From: Paraspadella gotoi
Lineage: Eukaryota; Animalia; Chaetognatha
NCBI GenBank assembly: GCA_051294375.1
Contig: JBJCIZ010001220.1
Location: 1-40,849, forward strand
DNA: 40,849 nucleotides
Reading direction: 5' to 3'
Part shown: piece after piece, positions 13,778 through 40,849 of the stretch
Layout of the letters: each line of letters begins with the position of its first letter
Position numbering within the stretch: the stretch's first letter is position 1
The notes under the pieces: generated by a model
The model's database searches: none
What the model was told of the DNA's origin: nothing
What the model saw: only the letters and a program-made list of their open reading frames with translations
Made by a program: the position numbers and the translations under genes

Positions 13778-14342
13778 ACACAAAAAAAACACCAGCATGG
13801 TAAAGTTGCGATTCGCTCGAAATTAATTTTCGATGAGCAGGAAGTGAAAATGTGAAAAACAAAAGGGAATCCGGCGAAAGGGAAGGAAGAGTGTTTCAAA
13901 AAGAAAAGAAAAAAAAAGATTTGATCGTGAATCGATGTTTCTCCATGGAGAATAAAAAAGAAAAACGTTAGTCTTTTGTGTTTTTTTTTTGCTCGAGGTG
14001 AAAGGTGGATTTTTTTCGTTTCCCGCCCAAAGTCAGATAAACGAAGATCGAAAAAAGATCCTTCGCTTTTAAATTAAACAACAAAACTTATGTGGTTTTT
14101 AAAGAGGCTTAGGTTGTAACTGTATTTAGAGATTGGACGACGAAACTGCGCCCAGGCTTTTTTTTCTCTCGATGTTTCCTCTCATGACCCTCGCTCATAA
14201 TATTTTTTTTTTACAAACGGAGATAATTAACCCATTGTGAATTTAAGTAAAAAAATTAAAGGGACTCAATTCATGATATAATAAAATAAGTCTGTAAAAT
14301 GGGCAGAGGACCGTGGCGGATTTCAAAGAGCAGGCGACCGCG

Positions 14343-15518: not shown

Positions 15519-15767
15519 CCGCGGCGGAAATTTAAAATTTAAATTCTATGGTCGAGATTCAACTCGATTTACAATAGAAATAATTTTAAAATTGAGAGCC
15601 TTTTCATTAAATAATTTTTGTATACATAGCTTACTTATTTATATAATAATTTTTGCATATTTTTGTCTATTTTGTATACATAGCTTACTTATTTATACGA
15701 ATAGAAAATAAAAAAAGTCTTTCTCTGTAGTCTTCTCTTTACCATCATTCCATCTTTCTTTATACTT

Positions 15768-20294: not shown

Positions 20295-20394
20295 NNNNNN
20301 NNNNNNNNNNNNNNNNNNNNNNNNNNNNNNNNNNNNNNNNNNNNNNNNNNNNNNNNNNNNNNNNNNNNNNNNNNNNNNNNNNNNNNNNNNNNNN
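20295..20394. other. Assembly gap
   Basis: 100 N. Contiguity across the gap is not established. Confidence 1.
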
Positions 20395-20395
20395 T

Positions 20396-20810
20396 AGTTA
20401 CGACAAGGAATAATTTTGAGCAAGGACAAGGAAATAATTTTTCACATAATAATTATAATACGGGGTGGAATAGGGACTTTAATATTATATGCTGGCGTTG
20501 TGATAGGAGAGGACATGTAAAGAGGGATTGTCCTCTTCAGATAGCAGATAACTATTGGATGGAAATCCAAAGGGAAAATAGGGAGAGAAGGGACAACGGG
20601 AGGCCAGTCAATAGTAACTTAGTTAATAACCAACCCAGGGTTAACCGTAATGAGCAAAGGGTTCCGTCCCAAGCAGCGCAAAACTCCCAACCTATAAAAT
20701 CTAATTCGTGTGGTTCCTTTAAACTCATAAGCCCCTTTCGGAGGGGGGCTAATCAAGTAGCGAAAGGAGTAATGAAACAAAATGGCAAGGGGATTCAGTA
20801 CAGAAAATAG
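20396..20810 (+). CDS. gag: Gag C-terminus (nucleocapsid) with CCHC zinc knuckle, partial
   Basis: CWRCDRRGHVKRDC (CX2CX4HX4C) at 20490-20531, in N/Q/R-rich flanks. The ORF-track start at 20268 only spans the N gap. Confidence 0.85.
20718..20750 (+). promoter_or_regulatory. Candidate -1 ribosomal frameshift signal (TTTAAAC plus GC-rich hairpin)
   Basis: TTTAAAC at 20718-20724, a 5-nt spacer, then AGCCCCTTTCGGAGGGGGGCT, at the gag/pol boundary. The TTA-AAC frame ends P-L-N-S-stop. Confidence 0.55.
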
Positions 20811-20959
20811 CGTAGTAAAAAAGAGCAGGTAGATATAGGGGTAAATACTGAAAAGTTTGAAAGAAAAAATTACTGAAGCCTATAAAATTAAAGAAGGAAA
20901 AGATAAAGTAAGGTTTGAATAGCAAGGGGTTGCAGTGTAAGTAAGGGAAGAAGGAAAGA

Positions 20960-21334
20960 ATGAAGAAACGTATAGACTCGAATATAGATGGGTTAAACCC
21001 TATCATAAATATCGAAAGGATTCCTGGTTCAGATGAGATTTTAGGTTGGGTTGAAGAGGAATTACCTCAAATTGATAAAAATCTCGATGTAGTTGAGGAA
21101 AGAAATTATGATGATTTTCAATCACTCCCTACTTACGCGTACGTTAATGCAGGAGTAAGGGGAATTGAGACAAGGTTAGGATTTGATACCGTTAGTGTAA
21201 AAACTTTATTATCTGAGGAGATGGTATGACATAATTAATACTGATGGAATGTATGTCTTGAACCCGCATGGATCCCAGTTTGAGGCCGTCAATGGTACAA
21301 AAATTGACATTTTTAGGTGATGTTAAATTGCCTG
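20960..21334 (+). pseudogene. Aspartic protease (retropepsin), N-terminal part, frameshifted
   Basis: RLGFDT(V)SVKTLLSEE resembles the DTG catalytic motif. It is followed, with indels, by FEAVNGTKIDI.GDVKLP, a flap-like segment, and is cut at 21334 by the nested LTR element. Confidence 0.75.
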
Positions 21335-21613
21335 TGAGGCGACTTACCTCCGTGTCTCTTTCCCTAAACCCTTCCTCTCTCCTCTTTCTTCGAGCCGGTC
21401 TATTCCACACGGTCACTTTGCCCTAGCTTTGGCAATGACCTTAGATTGACCGACACAGTAATAGGGCCAAAGGCGACGTAAGGTCAAGTTGGTCCGGGCG
21501 ATGATAAAAGTGGATCAGGAGAGAGCTAGACTCACTTCTTTCTCTACTTCTCTTACATCGTCACAATTCTTACACCTTTTCTCACTTTTATATTACTATT
21601 TTCGTCCTCTTCA
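21335..21613 (+). repeat. 5' LTR of the nested gypsy element
   Basis: TGAGGCGACTTACC...TCTTCA; near-identical to 25987-26263; followed by TTGGTGAGCCG (PBS-like). Confidence 0.93.
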
Positions 21614-21798
21614 TTGGTGAGCCGAACTTCCGAACACAACAGCAACAACAACACTTTCAGGCGACATGCTCAACTTGGGCGATGCACTATCCGCCACAAC
21701 ACATCAGGCGACATGCCTCAACTTGGTGACGAACTTTCCACCAACAATTACAATTCACTGAAGAGACGCAACAGACTTCTCCCTACGGGAGGGGGGGA

Positions 21799-22050
21799 TG
21801 TATGGTGGACTAAAATCCACCATCCGTTCATCAGTGGCCATTGGTGCCGAGGCAAGTCATTCGCCTCCCAACCCAAAGGTCCCGGGGTTCTAGCCCGCGT
21901 GGTCAGTCTAGCAAGGGACGGGGCGCTTAAACCCGCCTGTAACAAGGTGTTACAGCCTGATCCGAAGCTCAGGGACTGCTTATATTGAACGTTTCTGTCA
22001 TTAACATATATCAATAATCACTGTCTCTTCAAACTCTTTCAACTCCTCTC
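21799..22050 (+). repeat. LTR-like segment of a second family containing a tRNA-like cloverleaf (copy 2)
   Basis: Starts with TG directly after the purine tract GGGAGGGGGGGA; highly similar to the reverse complement of 11036-11308. The right boundary is approximate. Confidence 0.7.
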
Positions 22051-22059
22051 CTGATTTAG

Positions 22060-25000: not shown

Positions 25001-25150
25001 CAAACTGGGTTTTTGTGCTCCGTGCCAACAGGGTCACTCTCTCGCTACGCCCTACTTGGGCCTTACAAAGTAGTCTCAAGAGATACAAGACCTTCACAGT
25101 GGACATCGCTGGCGAGACAAGAGAAGATCTCCATCGACAGGATCAAGCCA
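22060..25150 (+). pseudogene. pol: Frameshifted gag tail and pol of the nested gypsy element
   Basis: Fragments: GLCFYHRTFGDRA.KC.PGC (gag tail), LVDGGASVS (PR), SAWASPLHVVKKPDGSLRCCGDYRRLN and YLDD near 23113 (RT), LTVDASLTAIGGVLEQ...ADTLSR (RH), HIDLVGPLP, TSDRGTQF and EANGMV (IN). Many 1-nt indels, from decay or read error. Confidence 0.92.
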
Positions 25151-25986
25151 GCAACAACAGAACCGGATGTCCAACCAACACCTCCAGCAGCCCCAGAAGA
25201 GGACGACCACCAGCAGCAACAGGCGAGTCGTTTCCTAGGGGGGAAGGTCAAACAAATAATAGAGACAAGAGTCAGCCCACGGAACCGACTCCACTCATCT
25301 CCAACATTTATACCTCAGGCGACGCAACCTCAACAGCAACGTCAACAAGAACCTCCACAGCAACAGCACGAGCGCCACCACGACACAATCCACTCGACAA
25401 CCAACACGAATCCAACTCAGAGACAAGCACGTGCAAGACAATACCATCGTCTGGGTTCTGAAGGAATAGATATATATTGTATTAGATGTCTAAGATCAAC
25501 TATCAGTAATTCGCGAGATCCGTGATTGTTGGATAAACCGGTTATCAGCACTATCCACAAATCATCACCAGTTGGTCACTGTTACGATTAATCACAACTT
25601 GCCTAACAGCAAGTAACATCAAAAACAAAATCATCAACAGCTGGTTATTTTCATGATTTAACCAAGCTTGCCTAATAGCAAGCAATCATCATAACACTTT
25701 GACCAAACATCATTTTTTCTATCTCCCTACTATCCTTTTTGTAAAATTTCTTCACAAAATATTTTTTTTTTTTTGAGAAGAGATATATGTAAATATTTAT
25801 TGTAGAAGACAAACCCCTTTTTAGTGGGTCCCCCAATTGTTTTCTCCTAGACCTTATTGTTTTGCCCAAATATTCCCCAAGGAGAAACAATATTGTAAAG
25901 TACTTTGTTCCTTAACTAGTAGTACAAGTCACTCAACTGTAAATAGGGTCAGTTCGAACCCCTAAGGTCCGAACTTGAGGGGGGGA

Positions 25987-26263
25987 TGAGGCGACTTACC
26001 TCCGGTCTCTTTCCCTAAACCCTTCCTCTCTCCTCTTTCTTCGAGCGGTCTAATTCCACACGGTCACTATTGCCCTAGCTTTGGCAATGACCTTAGATTG
26101 ACCGGACACAGTAATAGGGCCAAGGCGACCGTAAGGTCAAGTTGGTCACGGGCGATGATAAAGTGGATCAGGAGAGAGCTAGACTCACTTCTTTTCTACT
26201 TCTCTACATCGTCACAATTCTTCACCTTCTCACTTTTATTATTAACTATTTTCGTCTTCTACA
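25987..26263 (+). repeat. 3' LTR of the nested gypsy element
   Basis: TGAGGCGACTTACC...TCTACA; preceded by the polypurine tract GAGGGGGGGA; followed by TSD CCTG. Confidence 0.93.
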
Positions 26264-26352: not shown

Positions 26353-27681
26353 CACTATTCATCGAAATAATTTTTTTTTATCGGAATAAGGTTAGTTCAT
26401 CGTACAAAAATAATATATGCTTTTAATTAATTAGGGACTATCATCGAGAAACCTCTCAAGCAATATCAGTTGTCAAAAATCATTTCTTTAGGAGATATAA
26501 GCTATTTCTCTATTTCAGACTCACTTTGTCGACTATATTCCTGGAACTTTATGGATGAATTTACTTTTTTTTTTAAATCTTGTATAAAACAAATGGAATA
26601 ACCTAGCATGGATTAAATACAAAATTTGTTCTAAAAAATGTTTTACTGTATCTGAGTTTTTTGAAAACTAGCTTAATTTATATAGGGAATCATGGGGGAA
26701 TCACTACCATTCTAATTAAATATAATGATTAATATTAATAACGGACTTGATGTATTCGGGATTTCATCCCGCATCGATCCGCAAAATGAGTAATGCCAAA
26801 ATGATTTTCAAAATTAATTTTTTTTTCTAACACTTCGATAAGTAACTTAATTTTTTTAACTGCGATTTTGAAGTGGTTAAGAAACTAAATTGTCTTCATG
26901 GCTGGATGACTCAGAGTCGCATGGGATCGAAACAAAAATGAGGTATATTTGTTTAGGGTTTCGGTTAGGGATAAGGTTAGATTAGGGGATAGAGATTAGG
27001 GTTATGGATTAGTGTTAGAGATTAGGGTTAGGGATTAGGGTTAGGGATTAGTGTTGTTCTTTCCTACGCGTTATAGATCTCTCAGAAGGGTGAGCAACTG
27101 ACGGAAAACCCCGCTCATCACTACTTTTACAATAAAAAAATGTTGGTTGTGGGTGTGTCTCATCGGTCGGGATGAAGATCGACAGAAACAACGACGATAA
27201 TTTGAAATTTTGAACGATGGAGGAAACACAGTTGTAAAAATATTGTTAGAAATTTGACATCAAATGTTTTCTTTAAAAGAAGGAAAATGCTAAAAAAAAA
27301 CCATAATTTGTAAACTTCAAATTAATAATTTTACTCAATATCTATTTTGAACTTCCATCTTTAATCAAAAATTAGTAGTTAAAAACACGTTAGTACTATT
27401 AACTTCCTCGCTTAACTTGTTGAATCAAATTGCTCTTTAAACTTTTGTTTAAGCGTATTTGAGAGGCAAAAAATTTAAAAAAAGCTAAAAAAAATGCGCG
27501 TAGCGTTCGGGTTATCTTTAGGAATCGTAAAAAAATCAAATTTTACATTTTGGTCCTTTTTTGGAAATATTAAGATTTTACGAGAAGAACCTCTAAAGTT
27601 TTCAAGAATTACTCTGGTTAAGCTATCCGAATATGCCATTATATAATTTTTCCGATTTTAACGTTCACTTCGATCATAGTG
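26353..27681 (-). mobile_element. Non-autonomous Transib-like DNA transposon, copy B
   Basis: CACTAT...ATAGTG termini, 5-bp TSD CTAGG (26348-26352 and 27682-27686), reverse-complement match to 14343-15518, internal degenerate TTAGGG tract. The superfamily is inferred from CAC ends plus a 5-bp TSD. Confidence 0.85.
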
Positions 27682-27686
27682 CTAGG

Positions 27687-28108
27687 GTTAGATGAAATTT
27701 GTCGTCATTCTTTTAATGTTAATTTGGCAGATGGCACTTGTTTTCAGCCAAAGGCGGGTCAACATGCATATAAATTTTGTTTATAAAAACCAACGGGAAA
27801 TTAGAAAAGTTACGATTGCAGAGGACATAGTTTTGCCTCCACAATCTGCTTGTGACATAAGGGTTGAGATTGACGGTGTGAAAGATGAGGGAGGTGAAGG
27901 AATTATTCAACCTTTTAAGGATATTTGGAAATATGGTATAAATGCAGGGAGAGTTTTAACATTAGCTAAACCTACAGTTATAACTAAAGTAATTAATCAA
28001 GGGACTCGTAGGTTAGCCTTGGTAAAAGGGGAAGATTTTGGTTCATTTACGTTTTCGCGCCCATTACCAATTTTAATTAATACTGTAAGCGAGGGAGAGG
28101 AAGAGTAT
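27687..28108 (+). pseudogene. Host pol protease end and PR-RT linker (possibly a degenerate dUTPase-like beta domain)
   Basis: IAEDIVLPPQS...VINQGTRRLALVKGEDFGSF resembles the linker seen in many gypsy pols. It continues across the AAGAGTAT TSD toward the RT ORF with a 1-nt offset. Confidence 0.65.
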
Positions 28109-30423
28109 TACACTGTTTTTTTTTAACCATGTAGTCGAAAATTTTCACAATCCTGTACAGTTTCTAGTATAATTTTAAGTGCTTAAAACGATTAACAAGG
28201 TGTCGTCAATCAGATTTTGCATTAGACCTACGCACAATTTACCGGAAGTTGGCGTGGACTACAATATGGAATTTTTCTTTTATCTACAAATGAAAAGTTA
28301 GGCAGTTGTTTACAATCCTGCAATGAGTATAATTATTTAATAAGTAGTACTTAGACAAAAATGTTCAAAAAATAGTTTTCATCAATAGTGGGCGTGTCCC
28401 AAACCGGAAATAGTGCTCGATAATCAATTAAATATGTATTATTAAAAGTTTTTGATCTATTCTGACTGCTAATGGTTTTTTACTGTTATATGACAGCTTT
28501 ATCACAAAGGATTATCATCATATAATAAAAAAATCCTATCATATTTTCAATTATTTCTCTACTTAAAAAGATTCGTTTTTTAATAGCCAAAGGACTTATA
28601 ACTTTAACTTGAAATATTCAAAATTTCATTTCGATTTCATTCAATTAATGAGACTTTGCTAATTTTAACAATTCCTGGTTTATTTTTTAATACCTTTACT
28701 AATTTAATTTTTTTCATCAGTAATTTTTTTACTGGCATACCATTTTTTTGCTCAAAAACTATGGCCGGAAGTTAGACCCTTTTTTCATAAAGTTTATGTA
28801 AATCTTTAGAGGGAATACCCTATTTTTAAGTTTTTCCAGGTGAAGGAGAAGAGAAACAATATCCATGCATCAAAAAGTTAATCAGATTTATAATTTTCTT
28901 TTCTTTTCCTTAAAAAAAACCTTTAATCCAGCAATAAAATTATCATTTATACCATTATGTGAAATCCTTTCTTTCCTCACGTTTTTGAATAGAAAGAGTT
29001 TGAAGTAGTTCAAGCAACAATTTTTCTTTAAACAGTGAAAATGTGTTTTTTTCAATATCTACCTCTCTCTCTCTGGCCTAAACCTAACCTGTCTTCACCT
29101 CGACCTCTATCCTTTTCTCAAATCTTTGTTGAAAATGTTTTCTCTATCTCTTTCTCTCTCTGTCTCTTCCCTTGCTCTCACCTAATTCTCACTCTTCTTC
29201 CTTTCTCTCCTCACTCTCCCAAATATTTCTTGTGAAGTAAAAAACTGTTAACAATTCATAAATGTGGATGAAGACTTGAATTAAAAGTTAAAACATGTTC
29301 ACTGTTTAAAATCTGATACAAATATAAGATCAGTTTTAATAAGCTGTATAAACTTTATTAATTAGTTTTTTTCTATTTAGTTTCATTTAACTTTAGTCCC
29401 AAGGGTTTTAGAAGTAAGACGACTCTTATTCAAACCTGGAGTTATTATATCAAGTTTCATTATGATAAATAATACAGCAATATAAAATTATTAAATATTT
29501 TATTGTTTTGACAAGAAATAACAAATATTTAGTATTAAGCAATTCATAGTAGAATTTACAAGTTCATTTTTATTACTTTCATGCTAATATTTTGATCCTA
29601 TGAACAAATCATTTTTAAAGGCAGTTCTTTTGTATTTTGCTTCTCTCTCTTTCTTTCTCTCTCTCTCTACCTGACTTTTTCTGGGACAATTTACTTTTAC
29701 TCTGGACTGCCTTTAAAAATGATTAGTTCCTAAGAATCAAAATGTTGGCAAAAAAGTGAGAAAATTATACTTATAAATCCCACCACGAATTGCTTAATCT
29801 AAATATTTTTTTATTCCTTGTCAAAAAAAAAGTTTATATGCTTAATACTAAATCATTATCTCCTGTGCATATGATGTCTCTTCAACATCGAATAATGAAA
29901 TAATATTAATTCTGAATTTTAACAGTTACTAAGAAACGAAACTTTTGTAACTAATATTTATTTTGTCTATTTAAAGCTATGATAGTTTTTTATGATATAT
30001 ATGATAATTCTTTGTGATACAACTATCATATGACAAATAAAAACCATTATATTTATAGTAGATCAAAACTATTAATATTGCGTATTTTATCAGTTTTTGA
30101 ACGTCATTTCCGGTTTTGGACACGCCCACTATTCGTAAGAACCTTTTTTTAAAAACATTTATAAAGTAAAACTTATCAAATAATGAGAGTAACTTAAAAT
30201 TTAGGCAATTATTATTTTTATAAAACTATTTTCTTATCTTGCAATTAAAGAAAAGAGAAAAATTCCATGTTGTAGTCAACATCAACTTCCGGTCAATTGT
30301 GCGTAGGTCAACGCAAAATCTGATTGAGGACACCTTGTTAATCGTTCTAAGCACTTAAAATTATACTAGAAACTGTACAGGATGTAAAAATTTTCGACTG
30401 CATGGTTAAAAAAAAACAGTGTA
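28109..30423. mobile_element. Non-autonomous long-TIR DNA transposon (MULE/foldback-like, superfamily uncertain)
   Basis: TACACTG...CAGTGTA ends. TIRs are near-identical for about 170 bp and recognisable to about 430 bp. 8-bp TSD AAGAGTAT (28101-28108 and 30424-30431). No transposase ORF. Confidence 0.88.
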
Positions 30424-30460
30424 AAGAGTATGCAGACTGTCTTGGGTAAGCGAGGAATGT

Positions 30461-32212
30461 GTGGAAGATACAATGGTTTATGAGGATTTTGAGAGTAAGA
30501 AGCTTGAAGAGATCTCTTTTGGGCTAGAAAAGTCAATATTAAATGACGAGCAAAAAGAACAAGTTAGGGATGAATTAATGAAGCATAAAGAAGTTTTTCA
30601 GTGGGAAGATCGCCCTGTCAGTAAGACAACTAAAACAAAGCATAAGATAGTGCTTAAGCCAGGTACAAACCCTGTTAAGCAGAAAAATCGTAAGTTTAGT
30701 GAAGAACAAAACGCGTTTATAGATAAGGAGGTTCAGAAATTAATTGCACAGGACATTGTACAACCCTCAATTAGCAATTGGAATTCGAGAATTGTATTAT
30801 CATGGGAAGAAAGAAAAAATAGATGGCGTTTATGCATAGATTATCGTGCAGTTAATTCTCTTTGTGTTGCCCCTTTAGCCCATCCGCTGCCTAACATAAA
30901 ACAGCTATTAGATCAGTTTAGGGGGCAGAAATGGTTCCATACACTTGATTTATTTCAGGGATATCACCAGTGTCCGTTAGAAGAGGAATCAAGGCCAATC
31001 ACAGCCTTTTCTACTAAGAAAGGGTTGTTCGAGTTTAAGAGGTTGCCCTTTGGCTTGAACTCTGGCCCAACAAGTTATCAGGCATTAATGGAAGAAATAT
31101 TAGAGGAAATGTGCTGGAAGGAGGCAGTTGTTTATATTGATGACGTAATAATTTTTGGTAAAACGCTGGAGGAGGCTAATGATAGGCTATTTAGAGTTCT
31201 AAAGAAATTAAAGGAAGGGGGAATGAAGCTAAGAGCGGTGAAATGTCGACTTTTTCAATCCTCTGTCGAATTTTTGGGTTTTGTCATCTCTGACAAAGGG
31301 ATTAATACATGTAAGCATATTGTTGATGCGGTCACTAATTTTCCAATACCAAAGAATGTGAAAGGAGTACAAAGGTTTTTAGGGATCTGTAATTATTACC
31401 GTACTTTTATTAAGTCTCATAGTCAAATATTAGCCCCTATAATTAATTTGACGAGAAAAGGTGTTCCATTTAAATGGACAGAAGAGTGTCAGCAAGCCAT
31501 GGATACGTTAAAACAAAAACTTATCAGTGCTCCAATAAGAAATTATTATGATCCTAAACTCCCTATAGTTCTAACCACAGACGCGTCAGGGAGAGGGATC
31601 GGTGCGACTCTATCTCAGCTTGATAGAGAGGGTAAACTGGTTTTGTTAGCTTATGGGTCCCGCACCCTGAAAGCAGCGGAGGTCTCATGGAGCACTACTG
31701 AAAAAGAGTGTTTCGCGATTGCCCATTGGGTCAAAAAATTTCGGCATTATCTGACGGCTCCTTTCATAGTTTTTTCTGATCATAGTAGTTTGAGATATGT
31801 CTCAACGATGAGAGATTCGTCTCAAAAAATTTGTAGATGGTTGAATTTTTTGTCGCAATTTAATTTCGAGGTCCACCACAAGCCAGGAAATAGTAAGGAG
31901 TTGGTTGTTGCAGATATTTTGAGTCGTGTGCCATATGATAAAGAGGATAGTGAAGAGGATAAAATGGCGGTTAAAATGCAAAAGCCCATTCTAAGGCTTT
32001 ACTCCGCTTATGGTAGTCCAATATTAACGTCATGGTTTAAAATAGAAAAACCAACTAAAGATGATTTTGATGAGAACCAAGAATTAGTCGTCAACAACGA
32101 GATTGTTGAAGTAAAGATAGGTGAAGGTAAAGAAATACAATTAAGACGGTCACTTAAGAAAATGCAGAAGGAGACAGAAAAGGAGGAAAAAATTAATTGT
32201 GCATTTGGTTAA
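30461..32212 (+). CDS. pol: Reverse transcriptase plus RNase H of the giant gypsy element (no integrase in frame)
   Basis: WRLCIDYRAVN, TLDLFQGYHQ, LPFGL, VYIDD (RT); TTDASGRGIGA, EKECFA, FSDH, ADILSR (RH). 583 aa without interruption. Confidence 0.96.
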   Translation: MEDTMVYEDFESKKLEEISFGLEKSILNDEQKEQVRDELMKHKEVFQWEDRPVSKTTKTKHKIVLKPGTNPVKQKNRKFSEEQNAFIDKEVQKLIAQDIVQPSISNWNSRIVLSWEERKNRWRLCIDYRAVNSLCVAPLAHPLPNIKQLLDQFRGQKWFHTLDLFQGYHQCPLEEESRPITAFSTKKGLFEFKRLPFGLNSGPTSYQALMEEILEEMCWKEAVVYIDDVIIFGKTLEEANDRLFRVLKKLKEGGMKLRAVKCRLFQSSVEFLGFVISDKGINTCKHIVDAVTNFPIPKNVKGVQRFLGICNYYRTFIKSHSQILAPIINLTRKGVPFKWTEECQQAMDTLKQKLISAPIRNYYDPKLPIVLTTDASGRGIGATLSQLDREGKLVLLAYGSRTLKAAEVSWSTTEKECFAIAHWVKKFRHYLTAPFIVFSDHSSLRYVSTMRDSSQKICRWLNFLSQFNFEVHHKPGNSKELVVADILSRVPYDKEDSEEDKMAVKMQKPILRLYSAYGSPILTSWFKIEKPTKDDFDENQELVVNNEIVEVKIGEGKEIQLRRSLKKMQKETEKEEKINCAFG

Positions 32213-32972
32213 TTTTGTATGGAAAAGAGTGCAGGAAGGGGAAGGGGAAAGCTTCCGGATCCTGGCACTAAATGAGGTAGAGGAATTACAATAAGAAGTT
32301 GAGGGGAGGTTGGAGCAGTAACTGTGAGGCGTGGGAAAAGGAGGAAACAGGCGATGAGCCACTTGTTATGTTTTTCTTATTTTGAAATGGAACACTCAAG
32401 TGAGAGTGACTTGGGAGTGAAAGACGGGGGTGATGAGGTGACAAGGTGTCATGCGCAGTATTAAGTCGCAATGTTTAAAAAATTCCCATTGGGTGTGAGT
32501 TAGGGAACCGCGGTAATAAAACCGGCTTTCCTAACTGTTAAAAGTCCTTGTGAACCTCGGGAAAATTCCTAGCCGTCTGTAGAGAGGTAAGACGATGTGG
32601 GGATTGAGTGTGAAAAAGTAGGAAGGCGAAAAATCGATGGCAGGAGACTTATTCTATAGTTTTTCCTTACTCATAATACCACGTTGCTGTTGCCACCACT
32701 CCCTGAATATTTACTACGTAAAGGAGTTAAAAATATTAGTTAAAAATGAAGTCGTTTAAACTTTTAAGTATTGTTGAAATTTTTTTTTAACACTAAAAAA
32801 ATTTTTTTTTACCTCAATTTTCCTCCATTTTCCTGTACTAACGAGACTCATAATAACAATAATGAAATAGTACGTTAAGTAATATCGAAAAAAATATATA
32901 TATATACGTTTTTCAATTTAGTACTGAATGGGTTAACGAAATCTATGTAAATGGTTTCTCAATTTAGGAACG

Positions 32973-33752
32973 ATGTCGCTGCACCGATTGCCAGCTGGGG
33001 TGAAGCGAGAAATCATGACGTATTTACCAGTACGGGACAAGATCGCGGCGGCTGAAGCCTCGCCGGTCTTCGACGGAGTCCTTGACCTACAAGTGGAAAC
33101 GTGTACAACTTTCAACATCCACCAAAAGAAATCACTAGTGCTGGCATTGTGCGAGACAGACGATGTGGAAACGATGAAAAACGCCTTCGAGGTCACGGCT
33201 TACCAATTCATCCACGTCATCATTGCACGAAGTCTTATCGAAACGAATGATCCAGAAGAAACGGCGCAGCTGGAACGGTGGCTAAGACTAAGTACTAATA
33301 ACGGACAATATCAATTCACCTCAATTGAACTAACGGGAAAAGCAGGGTCTTGTGGATGTGTTTTCGCGGAAATTTTGAAATTTGGAAGAGGTATTACTTT
33401 TTCTGATACACAAGAGTTTCATTTGTTGAATTTAGTAGTAGAAAATATAGATCCTGTTAATGAGGGTAAATTTTTTATTTATAATGGGAAGGCAAGTTTG
33501 AACCAGATTGCACGTATCGCCAATGGGTTAAAATATGGCATCCGATTTCACGCGAGGAGCGATAAAGCATTTATTGATCAAGGGGCCACCGAGTTGCCTG
33601 GTAGAATTGATAATCTTAGTTGGTTTTCACGTGGTGAAATGTGTCGATACCTACCGTCTTGTTTTTTTGGAATTCGTGCTAACATGGTATTACTCGAATG
33701 GTACAAAACACCGCTTAAATTATTGAATGCCCAGGCAGTTTTATTTCGATAA
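32973..33752 (+). CDS. F-box-like protein, 259 aa
   Basis: The N-terminus SLHRLPAGVKREIMTYLPVRDKIAAAEASPVF fits the F-box pattern (L..LP.....I..YL...D). The remainder is unrecognised. Confidence 0.7.
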   Translation: MSLHRLPAGVKREIMTYLPVRDKIAAAEASPVFDGVLDLQVETCTTFNIHQKKSLVLALCETDDVETMKNAFEVTAYQFIHVIIARSLIETNDPEETAQLERWLRLSTNNGQYQFTSIELTGKAGSCGCVFAEILKFGRGITFSDTQEFHLLNLVVENIDPVNEGKFFIYNGKASLNQIARIANGLKYGIRFHARSDKAFIDQGATELPGRIDNLSWFSRGEMCRYLPSCFFGIRANMVLLEWYKTPLKLLNAQAVLFR

Positions 33753-34032
33753 TTTGTATTGGAGTTCAATCCCTGGTGCCGAAATTTTTTTTTTGATTCA
33801 TACTTTTGCTAATTGTGTTTATAATTTAATTTTGGCTTCATTAGCGTAGCGAGTGCCATTAATAGTGAAATTATTAACAAACTTATTCTTAATTCGAATT
33901 TTGATGATTGAATTGTTTTTCCTGGAAAAGTCGCTTAATCAACTCCGACTGTTACATTGTCGACAATGAATTGTATTTGTCTTAATTCATTGAAACTTAC
34001 AGAATTAATTCCTGAATCATAAGCAGACCGAG

Positions 34033-34987
34033 ATGAATCCTTACGAGAATCCAGCTCAGCAGCCTCAGTGCACGATCTCGGGGTTTACGTACCCCACGGA
34101 CCCTCAAGTGCAAAACCAAATCATGTTACCTGAGGTGAGAAAGGATATAATTGTAATGAAAATATATAACACGTACTAAAAATGTAACAAAATGGCGTCA
34201 TAAACTATGAATAAATAAATGAGAAATAAATAAATAAATGGGAAAGTAATAAATTATAAATTAAAGAGGACCCAAATAAAATGGGCTTAAATATTAATAA
34301 ACAAACATGTCCCTCTCTCAGGACTGGATAGTTTTACAGCACGCACAAGAGATGGCGGCAGTGGCGGCTGCGTCGTCTAACCCGGGTACATCAACGCCGA
34401 TAGACCCACGACTGGTGAAACAAAGAGTCGGTCAAGCTGTCTTCCCGACCGGGGATCCATTTGCGATGCAGGAACCTGCTGCGGAAGTCGAAGTTCAGAC
34501 TAATATAGCAATGGGGCTTGAAGCGCGCCCTAAAGAATCGCCACGCGATTACGATCTCAGCGACATCAAAGACACGGATATGCCCGCGGAAATAAGGATA
34601 CTGGATAAAGAAAATTACCCTCAAAGGTATTCGGCCACAGCGCGGGTCGGCAGAGATCAAAGCCTTTCCGAAGGTGCAAAACGTAGAATTGAATGCAACG
34701 AGTGCCACGCTACGTTTGAGACTTACCAGCAAAGGAACGGACACAAAAAGTCACACGTGTATAAGTGCGAGCTCTGTGGGACGACGGTGAAGGGAAAAAT
34801 TTTGCTCGATGCGCACCTTGATCTTTCCCACAAAAATCTGTATCGCTGCCTGGAATGCCACGAGCAATTTGAAGAAAGAGGGGAAATTATTCAGCACATT
34901 CTTTTGCACGAGGGCTTTGAGAAGATTGCTCGGGAAATAACCTCGATGATCAAACTGGAGACCCAGGGACTCATGCGTAGCGAGTAA
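34033..34987 (+). CDS. 3xC2H2 zinc-finger protein 1, probably two exons (34033-34134 and 34322 or 34340-34987)
   Basis: CNEC..H..H, CELC..H..H and CLEC..H..H fingers. An upstream 34-codon ATG exon ends GAG|GTGAGA, followed by an AT-rich intron and in-frame CAG acceptors. Confidence 0.8.
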
Positions 34988-35380
34988 CCAACGTTTTATT
35001 ATTATGTTTTCTGTTTCAAAGACACTCAATTGGTTTCCTTAAATGATTCTGTATTATTACAAATTACGAATAAGTAATACGTTTTGGTTCTTGTGATTAA
35101 TTCTGACACTGATTATATTTGTTTGTCATAACCTTGCTTGCCAACGTACGGTCAATACTGAGTTCTAAAGTAACGTTTCTGTTATTATGATCTTTTTTAT
35201 ACATTCTCTATTAGCCGAAAGGCTGTCACCAACCCAAAATAATTTGGGATTTTATTTTGAATGATACGTTATGAAAAACCTTTTTATTTCTTGAAGCTGC
35301 TAAAAACTTCATTGTTTTATGGCATGGTACATCTTATTTCTTAATTCCATGATTCACTTTAAAAAACATTTCAGATTCTA

Positions 35381-36034
35381 GTGCATTTAAAAATAATTAT
35401 AATCGAAAGAGACTCGACCCTCAAGATGGATATGCCCAACGGTCAAATCATGCTTATTAATCCCAAGACGGGGAAACCGACAACGTCGTCAGATCTTCAG
35501 ATGGTCAGCATGGGAAATCACACCATGAATATGGGTTACGATAGCAGCTCCATTGTGGGTGGCGCCAATATCCCGGGAGGCCAGGCCAACGGTGACACAG
35601 CGCCTTACGACAACAGATCCCCATTGTACGGGCTGAGGGGATCGACGAGGGGAAGAGGCCTTGAATCCTCACTAAGCGATGATCAAGATTGGCAACCACC
35701 AGGTCGGGAACAAGATCAAGGCGGAAGACGGCCACAAAAACTTTTTGAATGCATGAGTTGCAACAAATACTTTCGCTCGGCGCGCAGTAGAAACGCGCAT
35801 ATGAGAAAACGTCATTTTGAATGTGGCTTGTGTCACAAAGCATTTCCTAATCGTATTTATTTTGATTTACATATCGAAAGCAGGCACGCAACCTCACATC
35901 AATGTATCATTTGTAATAAATTTATCAGGGATAAAGGTAATATTATTATGCACGTTATGATGCATAAGGAATTAAAAGGGCCTGCAGAGAAAATCCTTTC
36001 TTATATTGCTACTGACAGTGACGAGAATGAGTAG
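35381..36034 (+). CDS. 3xC2H2 zinc-finger protein 2 (first in-frame ATG at 35426)
   Basis: CMSC..HMRKRH, CGLC..HIESRH and CIIC..HVMMH fingers after a low-complexity N-terminus. Confidence 0.85.
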   Translation: MHLKIIIIERDSTLKMDMPNGQIMLINPKTGKPTTSSDLQMVSMGNHTMNMGYDSSSIVGGANIPGGQANGDTAPYDNRSPLYGLRGSTRGRGLESSLSDDQDWQPPGREQDQGGRRPQKLFECMSCNKYFRSARSRNAHMRKRHFECGLCHKAFPNRIYFDLHIESRHATSHQCIICNKFIRDKGNIIMHVMMHKELKGPAEKILSYIATDSDENE

Positions 36035-36419
36035 ATTAAAATTTCCTTTCTCTTTACGATTCGGAAAGATTAAACAGGAGGTTGGTTTGGCGTAGTGATA
36101 TAAAGCTCAATTGGTTTTTAGTGTATGAAGTAACCGTAATGCTAAATTGTTCTTTGCTTGATTAGTATTAAACGTGATTTCAAGAATCGTTGCAAATATT
36201 ATATTTTCATGACTTTATATTTCAATGTATTTTCATTTTGTCATCTTCTTAATTAAATACTCGTGTGGTGTTCGTGTGATATAATTGATACAAACAATAA
36301 ATTTCTCTTCTTGTTCAATGTTCATTATCAGAAATAAACACTCGTAATAGTGGTATCATATCGTTGTCCTTCTGTATTGAAAAACATTAAGTACTAAGTG
36401 AGATCAACGTATATTAAAA

Positions 36420-37577
36420 ATGAATCACGTGTCCTTAGCTAATACTAACGAACTAGTTGAAAAAGGAGAACTTCAGTCCCAAATTAAAAGGGAAAAAGAA
36501 AAGAACACTAAGTTACTACAAAAATTAAATAAAGAGGAAATTAATAAAACTGAGTTGCGCCGTCTGGTGTCACAAGTATGTCAAGGTCTAAAATTTAATC
36601 GCAGTGAGAGAAATGGAAAAACCTATGTGTGCCTTAAAAAAGAAATAGGCGCCGAAGAAAAATATTTGGTTGAGATTGAGACGCTGACGTATATCCTGAA
36701 GTCAGCGGGAATCTTACAAGAAGTTATATTAAAGATGAACCAATTTGAACAAGGTGACGAGGGTGCGGATGACAAGAAAACCGACGACTTGGTGAAGATC
36801 CTGCAGGAAGAAATGAACGCAGAGGCCGACGGAAAGGAGAGAGCTTACTTAGAAAGAGAAAGAGAGCTTGAAAAAAGAAAGAGGGCGCTGGACAGAAAAG
36901 AGGCAAGTCTTGAGAAAAATTTTTGTTTATTACAGAACATGCAAAAAGAATTTGTGGAATTATTACAAGCCAAGCTGGAACGCGATCAAGAAATGTATGG
37001 AAATAAGTTGGCAGAGGAACGGGAAATGCAAGGGCAAGAGAAAGGATTACCATTAAGTGCTGGAGACCATAGTATGCAAGAGGAGTTAGTGGTAAATGTC
37101 TCGCCAGAAGAAATTATGGAAATCGAATTGGAGGCGAGCGAAAGTGAAAAGCAAAGTAAATCATCAAATCCAAATAGTAGTGTGAGTAATTTAGGGGATG
37201 AGAAAAATAATGAGATTTTTAAAATCCAAAACGGCACGAAGTATTATATGAAAAAGCTGAAAGAAATTAGAGTGAAGCACGGTTGCAAGGTTAAAATCAG
37301 TAAATTTTTAAAACCATGGGTGAAAGAATGTATACTTATAAGAAAGCATGGAAGGATTCCGTCGAGCCTCATGAGATACTTTAACGCAAAAATGGTCTGT
37401 AGCAAATGTTTTTGCCTGGAAGTAAGGCACCTCGATCCAGGGTGCAAGGTTCTTTGCTGTGGAATTGAGAGATGCGGCAAATGCTTTCACCAACATCATG
37501 GAAAAGAATGCCCGTGTCCACACACCCGCGAATTCGTTGACTTCGTTCAGGACGGTCCACTGTTTGAAACTAACTAA
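36420..37577 (+). CDS. Unknown protein with coiled-coil segments and a C-terminal Cys/His cluster, 385 aa
   Basis: Long intact ORF; E/K/L heptad-like stretches; CSKCFC...CKVLCCGIERCGKCFHQHHGKECPC. Confidence 0.75.
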   Translation: MNHVSLANTNELVEKGELQSQIKREKEKNTKLLQKLNKEEINKTELRRLVSQVCQGLKFNRSERNGKTYVCLKKEIGAEEKYLVEIETLTYILKSAGILQEVILKMNQFEQGDEGADDKKTDDLVKILQEEMNAEADGKERAYLERERELEKRKRALDRKEASLEKNFCLLQNMQKEFVELLQAKLERDQEMYGNKLAEEREMQGQEKGLPLSAGDHSMQEELVVNVSPEEIMEIELEASESEKQSKSSNPNSSVSNLGDEKNNEIFKIQNGTKYYMKKLKEIRVKHGCKVKISKFLKPWVKECILIRKHGRIPSSLMRYFNAKMVCSKCFCLEVRHLDPGCKVLCCGIERCGKCFHQHHGKECPCPHTREFVDFVQDGPLFETN

Positions 37578-37846
37578 TGAATTATACGACGGCCACACGA
37601 GAAACTCTTGTGGATGTATAGAGACTTTTATAATGGTATAAGAAATGAATTTCAAATAGGCATTGTTTAGATACATTGTCGGAATTCCGTAGTGAGTTAA
37701 TAGTGATTTAATAGTGCGGTAATCGTTATTTAGTAAGGATCCTATTTTTAGAAATTTTAATGAAGTTAATCGTTCCTGTTCACAATTTCTTTTAAATTTT
37801 TTTTTTTCTTTCCTTGATTTTGTGTTCCTCTTTTTTCAGTTAAATA

Positions 37847-39487
37847 ATGGAATTAGAACTTGGAGATACTATCGTCAATCTTTTTGAAACTAATGCCCCG
37901 AAAACAAATGAACTCCAGCGGGCCCAAAGTCAGGATGAAGGAATAAAAATCATTATGAGATCCATCGAAAGCGGAGAAAAGCCCGATTTCAACAACGCGG
38001 CCGTAAAAGGTTACAAGTCGGTTTTCCGATCACTCGAAATTCATGACGGCGTCCTCGTCCGAAAAACCGCCAGCGGCGGCAAGGCGGTTGTAGTCCCTGA
38101 AAGCAAGATTAGCGATGTTCTGTATCATACACACGGTAGCCCAATGGCGGCGCACTATGGCATTAGTAAGTCTTATTATAAATTGGTGAAAAATTTTTAT
38201 TTTCCTAAAATGGTTTTAAGACTCTCAGAGTTTATTAATACTTGTCCATTATGCGTTAGGAGAAAAAATCCTAAAAACACTCCTCGAGCTGAAATACAGC
38301 CAATTAGCGTCGATGCATACGACATTGGGGCATGCATTTCATATGACTTTAAGGGGCCATTGCCAGTGAGTAATAAATCCGTGATTTATCAGTGTAAAAA
38401 TCGATTTGTCTTAGTAATAATTGATCACGCCACTAGGTACGTCTTGGCCTATCCAACGCCCACGATGGAAGCCTCAGTGGTGGCGGAGGTGATCGTCTCG
38501 TCCTGGATCCCGCGATTTGGAGTTCCAAGGGCCATCATATCGGACAGGGCCAAAACTTTTACTGGTAGGATACTAAGAACAATTTATGAATCCTTACAAA
38601 TAGATGTATGTTTAACTGCATCATATAATCCAGCAGCTAATGGCTTAATTGAACAAGTTAATAGAAATATCTCTAGTATATTAGCAGTAATGTTAGATGG
38701 GTCTCTAGAAGATTGGCCAAAACAATTAAATTTATTATTCTGTGCTTATAATAGCAGTCCTAACATAGCAACGGGTGTGTCTCCTAATTATTTAGTATAC
38801 GGACGGGAGTTGATCATGCCAATTGATCTTATTTTAACTAGGAGTGGGAACCATGGGTGGAAAGACAGAAAAGTCTTGGATGAACTTGAAGAGCGACTAA
38901 GAGCGCGAAGAAAGGTCATGGAATTGCTAGATTTAAGGTACGAAAAAGGGCAAGAAAAAAGAAGGGAAAAGTCGAAATTAGTGGCAAACATTCCTACGTA
39001 TAAAGTTGGGGAAGTAGTTGGATTTAAACCACCATTACAGCCTGGTAAATTAATGAAAGCATATGAAATTAATCATACAATAATTAAAGTATTGTCTCCT
39101 ACTACTTATGTCATAAGAAATAATGATACGGGATTCGAGAGAATAGTGAACGCGCGGAAATTAAAGAAAGCGCCAGTTCGAGATCTTAAGCCTAAAGATT
39201 GTCAAAAAGGAGGAGTAGTTATTGAAGAAGATTCTGACTTTTCAGATGCGTCGAGCGAATCCGAGGTCGACTATGAGAAGAATCTAGCCTCTGACAGCCA
39301 AGGCATGAGGGAATCCGCGCTGACTGGTGGCGAAAAGGAAGACGACAGCCTCGACACGATGGGGGACTCCACGCTGACAAGCAGCAAAGAGGAAGATGGG
39401 AGCTCTGAGGAAGAACCACAGTATGGGTGGAATAAAAGACTACGAAATAGACAATCCATTAAAAAACCAAAAAAGCTGGAATTGTAG
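37847..39487 (+). CDS. Stand-alone gypsy-type integrase, 546 aa
   Basis: HHCC (HGSPMAAH...CPLC), DDE core (SYDFKGPLP, ISDRA, NGLIE), GPY/F-like C-terminal domain, and an acidic tail followed by a basic one. Confidence 0.95.
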   Translation: MELELGDTIVNLFETNAPKTNELQRAQSQDEGIKIIMRSIESGEKPDFNNAAVKGYKSVFRSLEIHDGVLVRKTASGGKAVVVPESKISDVLYHTHGSPMAAHYGISKSYYKLVKNFYFPKMVLRLSEFINTCPLCVRRKNPKNTPRAEIQPISVDAYDIGACISYDFKGPLPVSNKSVIYQCKNRFVLVIIDHATRYVLAYPTPTMEASVVAEVIVSSWIPRFGVPRAIISDRAKTFTGRILRTIYESLQIDVCLTASYNPAANGLIEQVNRNISSILAVMLDGSLEDWPKQLNLLFCAYNSSPNIATGVSPNYLVYGRELIMPIDLILTRSGNHGWKDRKVLDELEERLRARRKVMELLDLRYEKGQEKRREKSKLVANIPTYKVGEVVGFKPPLQPGKLMKAYEINHTIIKVLSPTTYVIRNNDTGFERIVNARKLKKAPVRDLKPKDCQKGGVVIEEDSDFSDASSESEVDYEKNLASDSQGMRESALTGGEKEDDSLDTMGDSTLTSSKEEDGSSEEEPQYGWNKRLRNRQSIKKPKKLEL

Positions 39488-39576
39488 TGTTCTTTCATTA
39501 TTGATTTTGATTTGTATCTCGAATTCTGCTCTTTTCATTGCATATTAAATTAATAGTATGGTTTGAGGTTTTGGCC

Positions 39577-39591
39577 AGGGGGGGAAAGATG
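39577..39591 (+). promoter_or_regulatory. Candidate polypurine tract plus TG (3' LTR start at 39590)
   Basis: AGGGGGGGAAAGA|TGTG, 90 nt after the integrase stop, which is the canonical position. Confidence 0.55.
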
Positions 39592-39647
39592 TGTGATTCA
39601 CATCTTATTAATTTGATGTGTAAAATGAATTAATAGGTGAAATAACT

Positions 39648-40727
39648 ATGGCAATGGTACAATTATTAAAAGGAAGTGATCAGCATATAATAACAATGGC
39701 ATTAGAGTATAAGTTGCCTTACGCCCTACATGTTGCAGTTGAGCATGAAAGGGAAACAGTTGTAAAACGATTATTGGATGAAGACTTTGATACAAACGAA
39801 GTACGACCACGTGACGGGTATACGCCGCTTCATTTAGCTGTAGTAAGGAAGAACGCGACCATGGTTGAGCAAATACTGATAAGGGGAGGAAGCGTGATGA
39901 AAAAGGATTACTCAGGAAATACGTGTTTAGCAAAGTTGTTAAGGGAAAAATTTGATAGTAAGGCAAGACGGGTTATAAATTTAATTTTTGATAAAATGAG
40001 AGAGGAAGACTTTAAAGTGGAAAACATTCATGAAGAGTCTTTTTTACACATAGCGGCTTCTAACCCCGAGATTATAGAAATTAGGCTGTATCAAGAATTA
40101 ATAGAAAAGGGAGTGCCAATGGAAAACCATGATGCTTATGCCGGAAGAACATTTTTAATGAATCTTTGCCATTCAAATTGGGATGACGAGTTTATTATCG
40201 AAGTAATAAAAATGGCTACAGATAGAGGATTAAATATTAACCAAAGTGATAAGAGTCAGACATCCCTTTTACAATATGCAATAAATGAAGGAAATAGAAA
40301 GATAGTAGAGGCTATTTTAAAGAACCCTAACACATTGGTGTCGGCGAGAAACACCTATGGAATGACGCCAATGTGGAGCGCATCTCTTAAGGGGGACCTA
40401 AGAATGATCAAAGAAATTTATGCAGCAGGAGGGGAGATGAAGGATATGGCATTTGCTAATGCAGCAGCAAGCAGGAAAATTACTACATGGCAAGCAGCTA
40501 AAAGGTCCCGTCACGACTTCGTAGCAGGAAAAATATTAGAATTCATGACAGGTAGAGAGGATGGAAAAAACCCAGGGTTGATTGTCAAGTCCCTAAAACA
40601 CAGCGCTAAAATAGTAATCAGGCGGCATTTAGTCATGTGCAATCAGGAGAGAGTACTGCTTGACCAGTATAAGGAGCTGAGCCTCCCAATTATTCTTCAA
40701 AACTACCTACGCGACATAAAATATTAG
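39648..40727 (+). CDS. Ankyrin-repeat protein with C-terminal SOCS box (ASB-like), 359 aa
   Basis: Ankyrin motifs ALHVAV, GYTPLHLAV, SFLHIAA, GRTFLM, TSLLQYAI and GMTPMWSA. The C-terminus SLKHSAKIVIRRHL...LSLPIILQNYL fits BC box plus cullin box. Confidence 0.9.
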   Translation: MAMVQLLKGSDQHIITMALEYKLPYALHVAVEHERETVVKRLLDEDFDTNEVRPRDGYTPLHLAVVRKNATMVEQILIRGGSVMKKDYSGNTCLAKLLREKFDSKARRVINLIFDKMREEDFKVENIHEESFLHIAASNPEIIEIRLYQELIEKGVPMENHDAYAGRTFLMNLCHSNWDDEFIIEVIKMATDRGLNINQSDKSQTSLLQYAINEGNRKIVEAILKNPNTLVSARNTYGMTPMWSASLKGDLRMIKEIYAAGGEMKDMAFANAAASRKITTWQAAKRSRHDFVAGKILEFMTGREDGKNPGLIVKSLKHSAKIVIRRHLVMCNQERVLLDQYKELSLPIILQNYLRDIKY

Positions 40728-40849
40728 TAGCAACGAAGAATCTACTAACAAGAGGAAAAACAACCTGCGCACAAGGGAATCAAATCGTCAAACAGAACTC
40801 TGTCTGAACTTTTTAACAAGCATGGGGACATGCTTGAATCTAGATCGGG

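What the first reader, a model, noticed from the sequence alone, without database searches (positions are those of the whole stretch)
30461..40727. Giant gypsy-type retroelement with pol split by a four-gene cargo cassette between RNase H and integrase
Seen: RT-RH ends at 32212 and integrase starts at 37847. Between them are four intact, same-strand, compactly spaced ORFs (F-box-like, two C2H2, coiled-coil/Cys-rich), and a fifth (ANK-SOCS) follows integrase. This 10-kb stretch has no microsatellites or MITEs, unlike the flanks. Known: in Ty3/gypsy elements RT-RH-IN is normally one polyprotein, and extra ORFs usually sit before gag or after pol; giant cargo-bearing gypsies exist (plant Ogre, planarian Burro). 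Inference: this is a virus-like multigene retroelement of more than 11 kb after removing the nested insertions. I do not recognise cargo between RH and IN from any described family.
Basis: partly seen in the sequence, partly recalled or inferred. Interest (0 to 1): 0.92.

Follow-up and report, generated by a model that had tools for sequence, protein, structure and literature searches.

The report
Retrotransposon with a stand-alone integrase gene
This gypsy-type jumping gene keeps its integrase as a separate gene, cut off from reverse transcriptase by four extra genes. Many relatives elsewhere show the same split, so it is likely an undescribed, virus-like retrotransposon lineage that makes its integrase from its own, probably spliced, message.

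Summary
Observation confirmed and extended. RT-RNase H (30473-32212) and integrase (37847-39487) are separate same-strand ORFs with four intact ORFs between them and ANK-SOCS after. One 8,091-bp run contig spans cargo, IN and ANK. The split is family-wide. All 12 close RT relatives (59-73% identity) lack IN, and 9 end at one shared C-terminal motif. All 17 close IN relatives (50-60%) lack RT, and 10 start within 3 residues of the window Met. The break maps to Ty3's RT/IN boundary. The Cys/His-rich gene before IN has 34 relatives. Three of their contig lengths equal those of IN relatives (P about 1e-4), so it likely travels with IN. The region's strongest splice acceptor lies 8 nt before the IN start. 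Not shown: LTRs, cargo order in relatives, RT and IN on one relative's contig, transcripts; fused family members were outside the search lengths. Sibling copies in the same genome share RT and the post-RH leader but not this cargo or IN at 85% identity or more. Best reading: a split-pol, accessory-gene-bearing gypsy lineage. No precedent was found in the ten library searches.

The parts
20395..20810 (+). 3' part of gag with a CCHC zinc knuckle; its 5' part and any 5' LTR lie in or beyond the N gap 20295-20394
   Evidence: zf-CCHC E 7e-5; sequence
20945..21334 (+). Start of the PR-RT-RH gene (protease N-terminal part), with frame breaks in the window
   Evidence: tblastn of relative P0022 residues 4-100, 55-63% identity
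21335..26263 (+). Nested ordinary gypsy LTR element (LTRs 21335-21613 and 25987-26263, 4-bp TSD) inserted in the protease
   Evidence: junction sequences; RH hits; its LTR has very high run depth
26353..27681 (.). Nested non-autonomous TIR element (CAC ends, 5-bp TSD, Transib-like by recall); an inverted copy lies at about 14342-15520
   Evidence: an X1 contig joins across the empty site
27679..28108 (+). Protease end and PR-RT spacer of the split-pol element
   Evidence: P0022 residues 133-273 match at 50-71%
28109..30423 (.). Nested DNA transposon with long TIRs and an 8-bp TSD
   Evidence: contigs of X1, X5 and X6 join 28108 to 30446 without it
30473..32212 (+). RT-RNase H, catalytic motifs present (YIDD; RH D-E-D-D); the family's terminal motif and stop lie at 32294 in another frame
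   Evidence: family profile matches Ty3 Gag-Pol 584-1017
32295..32972 (+). Post-RH leader shared by about three related copies; consensus splice donor at 32586
   Evidence: variant contigs with 4-11 other letters; donor scan
32973..33752 (+). F-box-like protein, 259 aa
   Evidence: ESM Atlas 0.96 to F-box clusters; no Pfam hit; single-sequence model uninformative
34035..34134 (+). Possible short coding exon ending at a consensus donor, in phase with the C2H2 genes (inferred)
34307..34987 (+). C2H2 zinc-finger protein 1
   Evidence: zf-C2H2 hits; paralog of ZF2, 28% over 108 aa, E 1e-17
35426..36034 (+). C2H2 zinc-finger protein 2
36420..37577 (+). Coiled-coil protein with a family-specific Cys/His-rich C-terminal domain (6 Cys and 3 His invariant in 22 aligned sequences); likely linked to IN in relatives
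   Evidence: 34 relatives; alignment; model pLDDT 82; contig-length matches
37847..39487 (+). Stand-alone integrase with its own Met, H2C2, D167-D233-E269 triad and basic C-terminal tail; strong splice acceptor ending at 37839
   Evidence: family profile matches Ty3 Gag-Pol 1021-1448
39648..40727 (+). Ankyrin-repeat and SOCS-box protein
40731..40849 (+). Start of a 3' stretch again shared with sibling copies (a purine tract at 40750-40760; possibly the approach to the 3' LTR, untested)
   Evidence: unique contigs end at 40760 and variants appear from 40774

Best explanation
This is a gypsy-type retroelement whose pol is split at the RT-RNase H/integrase boundary into two genes with accessory genes between them, a layout likely shared by a whole undescribed lineage, and whose integrase is predicted to be made from its own start codon on a spliced or internally promoted message. 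Shown: the split in the window and in relatives, and the contiguity of cargo, IN and ANK. Inferred: PR-RT-RH comes from the long RNA; IN and each accessory ORF come from subgenomic RNAs (donor at 32586 or in the 5' LTR, acceptor 8 nt before the IN AUG). IN would enter the particle through RNA or Gag binding by its basic tail rather than as part of a polyprotein, as foamy virus Pol does. The conserved Cys/His coiled-coil gene is likely a core regulator, for example of RNA export. The F-box and ANK-SOCS proteins are likely cullin-ligase adaptors aimed at host silencing factors, and the C2H2 pair likely transcription regulators. This copy is probably dead, because three insertions break its protease.
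For: 12 of 25 RT hits are close (59-73%); none carries an IN domain, 9 are 854-921-aa PR-RT-RH ORFs, and 9 end at the same EVEYL-type motif. 17 of 21 IN hits are close (50-60%); none carries RT, 10 start within 3 residues of the window Met, 1 about 17 residues in, 4 have 18-50-residue extensions and 2 start internally. There are no cross-hits between the profiles at E<=10 (0 of 19 RT-cluster and 0 of 20 IN-cluster proteins). On Ty3 Gag-Pol the RT-RH profile ends at 1017 and the IN profile starts at 1021. Clade support is 100/99 for RT (12 rows) and 100/100 for IN (17 rows). 3 of 32 contig lengths of Cys/His-gene relatives equal one of 20 IN contig lengths (4698, both Logan; 5782 and 2550, both ENA); 0.1 expected, P 1-2e-4. 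0 of 19 RT contig lengths equal an IN length, although 7 RT and 7 IN contigs are at least 4.4 kb. The only one of 206 YAG sites in 32213-40849 with 11 or more of 14 pyrimidines lies 8 nt before the IN ATG. In 3 of 4 IN relatives with an open upstream frame (4 of 5 with cluster member P0055), Gln, compatible with a CAG acceptor, sits directly before the aligned Met. One 8,091-bp contig spans cargo, IN and ANK.
Against: No LTR, TSD or second full copy was seen (no genome held). No relative's DNA showing RT and IN on one contig was obtained. Both protein searches excluded proteins above 956 and 1014 aa, so fused members of about 1,400 aa could exist unseen. Summed run depth over RT is about twice, and over the leader about three times, that over cargo and IN. 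Sibling copies share RT and leader but no cargo or IN at 85% identity or more, which fits deletion derivatives or module swaps but also an IN module that is a separate unit. Outgroup placement is unresolved in both trees, so RT/IN congruence is not shown. Conservation of the F-box, C2H2 and ANK genes in relatives was not tested. Linkage rests on contig lengths, not DNA, and gene order in relatives is not shown.
Confidence: 0.75

Rival explanations
1. Two partners: an IN-less gag-PR-RT-RH retroelement and a separate IN-plus-cargo module (Ginger- or Polinton-like DNA transposon, or a helper) that lie side by side here and may complement each other in trans.
For: Cargo and IN have about half the summed depth of RT, and siblings share RT and leader but not the module. 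No relative contig holds both RT and IN. Ginger transposons encode stand-alone gypsy-like integrases (PMC2836005, passages).
Against: No inverted or direct repeat matches 30430-40849 anywhere in the window. The IN N-terminus shows no YPYY motif and there is no OTU or Ulp1 tail. IN keeps the pol linker starting exactly where RT-RH ends on Ty3. All 12 close RT relatives lack IN and need one. Siblings rejoin the window sequence after ANK, as expected inside one element.
Confidence: 0.13
2. The cargo lies in an intron of pol: splicing joins RH to IN, and a normal Pol polyprotein is made.
For: Strong acceptor before IN. In relatives, Gln directly before Met would allow an in-frame join.
Against: RT-RH relatives end at a conserved terminal motif and stop. 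In the window an in-frame TAA lies between the acceptor and the IN ATG. The N-terminal Met is conserved across IN relatives. Donors inside the RT-RH ORF were not scanned.
Confidence: 0.07
3. A one-off accident: host genes or another insertion landed between RH and IN of an ordinary gypsy copy, or the assembly is chimeric.
For: The cargo region is low-copy by depth. F-box, C2H2 and ankyrin genes are common host gene types.
Against: The split is present in 12 RT and 17 IN relatives from other datasets. The Cys/His gene co-occurs with IN in three. One contig spans cargo, IN and ANK. The ORFs are compact and nearly intron-free.
Confidence: 0.05

Closest known systems
Ty3/gypsy LTR retrotransposons (Metaviridae; Ty3 Gag-Pol, PDB 7q5b)
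   Same: Best solved-structure hit for both halves (E 1e-95 and 2e-25); order gag, PR, RT, RH, IN.
   Different: RT-RH and IN are separate genes 5.6 kb apart with four ORFs between them; LTRs not yet shown.
Burro/GYPSM1 (planarian) and Ogre (plant) giant gypsies (PMC6431247, passages)
   Same: Large elements with accessory genes tied to ubiquitin or apoptosis control, ankyrin repeats among them.
   Different: In the passages seen, Burro holds its extra domains mostly in one polyprotein with PR-RT-RH-IN, and Ogre has 1-2 extra ORFs. No separate IN gene or RH-IN cargo is described. No sequence comparison with Burro or Ogre was run.
Foamy virus Pol (PMC6669543, passages)
   Same: Pol is made apart from Gag from a spliced mRNA, packaged through RNA, and cut once into PR-RT-RH and IN, the same two products that are two genes here.
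   Different: Foamy Pol is still one ORF; the RT here is closer to Ty3; no cargo ORF has a transmembrane stretch, so no env is evident.
Cer1 CERV (PMC10309623, abstract and passages)
   Same: A gypsy accessory protein from a spliced mRNA with coiled-coil and Cys-rich parts, needed for genomic RNA export: a functional model for the 385-aa protein.
   Different: Analogy only; no sequence or fold similarity was tested or found.
Ginger1/Ginger2 DNA transposons (PMC2836005, passages)
   Same: Stand-alone gypsy-like integrase.
   Different: No TIRs, YPYY motif or OTU/Ulp1 tail here; RT-RH and gag lie upstream on the same strand.
Daidara (Kojima 2023; recalled, paper not held), Troyka (PMC12440569, passages), ancient errantiviruses (PMC13524379, passages and section 7)
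   Same: Animal gypsy-like lineages with extra proteins or extra domains between RH and IN.
   Different: Troyka has a single Gag-Pol or Gag plus Pol. Errantivirus bridge domains are in frame inside Pol. Daidara as recalled has gag, pol and one extra protein, which could not be checked.

Membership tests
Ty3/gypsy (Metaviridae) | RT-RH and IN of Ty3/gypsy type | tested here: met
   Ty3 is the top PDB hit for both profiles
Ty3/gypsy (Metaviridae) | Order gag-PR-RT-RH-IN | tested here: met
Ty3/gypsy (Metaviridae) | PR-RT-RH-IN in one Pol polyprotein | tested here: not met
   separate ORFs in the window and in 12 RT and 17 IN relatives
Ty3/gypsy (Metaviridae) | LTR pair, PBS, PPT and TSD | tested here: inconclusive
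   the 5' end lies in an N gap and the 3' end beyond the window; no repeat found inside; no genome held
Ty3/gypsy (Metaviridae) | RT and IN in the same named clade | tested here: inconclusive
   both clades are monophyletic on long stems; outgroups unresolved; no named references
Burro / Ogre / Daidara giant gypsies | RT clusters with the lineage; total length over 20 kb; long LTRs | not testable with these tools
   no reference sequences at hand; element ends not in the window
Ginger1 | 40-270-bp TIRs with a 4-bp TSD around the IN gene | tested here: not met
   no inverted repeat for 30430-40849 within the window; a partner beyond the window end is not excluded
Ginger1 | YPYY motif and C-terminal OTU or Ulp1 domain | tested here: not met
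   absent from alignment A1 and from the Pfam scan
Errantivirus / env-bearing gypsy | env ORF with a transmembrane segment | tested here: inconclusive
   no cargo ORF exceeds hydropathy 1.25 over 19 residues; DNA beyond 40849 is unseen

The most novel reading that the evidence does not exclude
A new lineage of complex, retrovirus-like LTR retroelements in which integrase has become a free-standing gene. It would be expressed from a spliced message and packaged apart from RT, behind a conserved new zinc-binding regulator. The gap between RH and IN would serve as a swappable cassette of host-control genes (SCF and SOCS ubiquitin-ligase adaptors, zinc fingers), exchanged between sibling elements at a shared leader.
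Probability: 0.5. Interest if true: 0.9.

Novelty: new variant of a known kind. Interest (0 to 1): 0.8.

Why it matters
In LTR retrotransposons and retroviruses, integrase rides into the particle as part of Pol (established knowledge; PMC3383448 passage). A lineage that keeps IN as its own gene over divergences of 40-50% needs another way to make, dose and package it. That makes it a natural test of why Pol is a polyprotein, and a living model for how stand-alone integrases such as Ginger could arise from gypsy pol. It also opens a new slot for accessory genes. Standard annotation, which expects RT and IN together, would misfile such elements as broken fragments plus host genes.

Tried and rejected
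No genome was held, so copies, LTRs and TSD could not be mapped. Viral-contig scans with IN, the IN and RT alignments and a Cys/His relative found no relative. The metagenome scan gave 17 loci and the genome scan 3, all distant (23-34%); the long ones are ordinary contiguous pols and were used only as outgroups. The word-based search with the Cys/His alignment returned 1 protein. Rfam found nothing in 32100-40849, and the leader hairpin at 32490-32600 folds no better than shuffles (z -0.16), so a ribozyme idea was dropped. Fold searches of the 385-aa model gave no match at E<=0.001 in PDB or BFVD and only generic coiled coils by VIA; the Cys/His domain was not folded alone, and the Atlas hint of RING (0.86) is a lead only. 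The F-box model had pLDDT 33. ANK-SOCS matched only Wolbachia phage ankyrins at 25% among phage records: generic. No RNA holder was listed; X9 (guessed RNA) gave no splice joint. No joint from the leader to the 3' end was listed for sibling copies. Earlier scan notes: nothing by sequence or place, two unrelated Burro-like notes by words. Ten literature searches showed no split-pol gypsy in listings or in the passages read. Repbase, GyDB and subscription papers, including the Daidara paper, could not be seen, and no supplements were read, so a prior Repbase entry is not excluded.
Full report
Observation. The ORF list and Pfam scan confirm seven same-strand ORFs in 30473-40727: RT-RNase H, a 259-aa ORF, two C2H2 proteins, a 385-aa ORF, integrase and ANK-SOCS. 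Catalytic motifs of RT, RH and IN are present. The region is 75% coding and poor in simple repeats (2.7 bases per kb against 29-96 in the upstream flank). The 259-aa ORF has no Pfam hit but scores 0.96 against F-box clusters in the ESM Atlas. The two C2H2 proteins are paralogs. The window's RT-RH frame stops at 32212, about 27 codons short of the family's terminal motif, which lies in another frame and ends at a stop at 32294. Small indels against run contigs occur in this multi-copy part.

Upstream anatomy. A gag zinc knuckle (20395-20810) follows an N gap. The protease is broken by three insertions, each with a TSD: an ordinary gypsy element (21335-26263), a TIR element (26353-27681) and a 2.3-kb DNA transposon (28109-30423). 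A full-length relative maps across them in order, and run contigs join across two of the empty sites. Without them the element is about 11.9 kb from gag to the window end, with no LTR in view. This copy is probably dead, while its 3' genes are intact.

The assembly is real. Nine runs of one organism in three studies hold the stretch, eight with half its words or more. In X2 one 8,091-bp contig covers 32669-40760 with one other letter and one gap. Shorter overlapping contigs tile from RH to it. X1 and X2 may be the window's source; X5, X6 and X7 are other samples and hold pieces of cargo and IN with few differences.

The split is a family trait. Of 25 RT hits, 12 are close (59-73%). None has an IN domain, 9 are PR-RT-RH ORFs of 854-921 aa, and 9 end at one motif. 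Of 21 IN hits, 17 are close (50-60%) and none has RT. Ten begin within 3 residues of the window Met, one about 17 residues in, four have 18-50-residue extensions and two start internally. The profiles do not cross-hit. On Ty3 Gag-Pol the RT-RH profile ends at residue 1017 and the IN profile starts at 1021, so the break is at the RT/IN boundary. In trees of 30 rows each, the window RT groups with 11 relatives (100/99) and the window IN with 16 (100/100). P0033 and P0017 were dropped for low coverage, and L006 and L007 as duplicates of L005. Outgroups are unresolved, so congruence is untested. Caveat: proteins above 956 and 1014 aa were not searched, so fused members are not excluded.

At least one cargo gene belongs to the family. 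The 385-aa protein has 34 relatives at the 50% cluster level. They share a C-terminal domain with 6 invariant Cys and 3 invariant His in 22 aligned sequences; it is modelled at high confidence and has no fold match. Contig lengths were obtained for 21 of the 34 representatives and listed cluster members, 32 lengths in all. These are 3 of the 9 contigs of 2 kb or more; 0.1 matches were expected, P 1-2e-4. None of 19 RT contig lengths equals an IN or Cys/His length. This is indirect: no DNA was seen and gene order in relatives is not shown. F-box, C2H2 and ANK relatives were not searched in these collections.

Sibling copies. Summed contig depth, which is no copy number, is about twice as high over RT and three times over 32200-32730 and beyond 40731 as over cargo and IN, and variant contigs appear in those parts only. 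So related copies share RT, the post-RH leader and the 3' end, but no cargo or IN at 85% identity or more. One X1 contig leaves the window sequence at 32953, just after an ATG at the end of the leader, a weak hint of a different first cargo gene. Deletion derivatives, module swaps or an independent IN module could all explain this; it is the main evidence for the first rival.

Mechanism (inferred). The one strong acceptor among 206 YAG sites in 32213-40849 ends 8 nt before the IN ATG, with an in-frame stop between them. Consensus donors occur only at 32586, in the shared leader, and at 34134. Three of four IN relatives with an open upstream frame have Gln directly before the aligned Met, as a CAG acceptor would give; two of these three are close kin. 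I therefore propose that IN, and likely each cargo ORF, is translated from its own AUG on subgenomic RNA. IN would then be packaged through RNA or Gag contacts, perhaps by its basic tail (motif found in 9 of 17 relatives). The precedent is foamy virus Pol, made apart from Gag, packaged via RNA and cut once into PR-RT-RH and IN (PMC6669543, passages). F-box and SOCS boxes are cullin-ligase adaptors (established knowledge), so these cargo genes likely degrade host factors. The conserved coiled-coil Cys/His protein may act like Cer1 CERV in RNA export (PMC10309623, abstract and passages); that is analogy only. No RNA evidence was available.

Comparison and novelty. It works like a Ty3/gypsy element but fails the single-Pol feature, and LTRs are untested. 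Burro and Ogre carry cargo with an intact pol in the passages seen (PMC6431247). Troyka has Gag-Pol (PMC12440569, passages). Kuafuorterviruses (PMC11673190, first third read) gave no sign of a split. Errantivirus bridge domains are in frame (PMC13524379, section 7). Bdelloid extra ORFs are ORF3s beside gag and pol (PMC5408684, abstract). Ginger features are absent (PMC2836005, passages). Ten searches found no split-pol gypsy. Repbase, GyDB, the Daidara paper (recalled only) and supplements were not seen.

Verdict. Observation confirmed; interpretation supported. New variant of a known kind; confidence 0.75; interest 0.8.

Noticed in passing
window 20945-21334 and relatives P0022-P0032: PR-RT-RH relatives are called from their own Met just before the protease, so pol may also be a separate ORF from gag, making three core genes: gag, PR-RT-RH and IN.
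   Followed up: partly
window 27692-28108: A 140-aa conserved spacer between protease and RT without a Pfam hit, shared with the env-bearing outgroup L005 and with L001; dUTPase-like by recall only.
   Followed up: no
window 34035-34134: A 33-codon ORF ends at a consensus donor in phase with possible acceptors of both C2H2 genes, suggesting a shared first exon.
   Followed up: partly
window 32908-32967: The TTCAATTTAG acceptor-like word occurs twice before the F-box ORF, with an out-of-frame ATG at 32951 between the two.
   Followed up: no
window 11109-11305: Inverted copy of the internal leader (about 21800-21994) of the nested gypsy element, outside its LTRs.
   Followed up: no
window 14342-15520 and 26353-27681: A 1.3-kb TIR element with CAC ends and a 5-bp TSD carries internal TTAGGG-like repeats; two copies in opposite orientation.
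   Followed up: partly
L005 5694-13997: Tandem gag-pol-env gypsy units sharing boundaries on one metagenome contig, with an 858-aa env-like ORF.
   Followed up: no
P0074, P0082, P0086, P0089 and P0060-P0067: N- and C-terminal halves of the Cys/His protein are often called as separate proteins in relatives, which may reflect an intron or contig ends.
   Followed up: no
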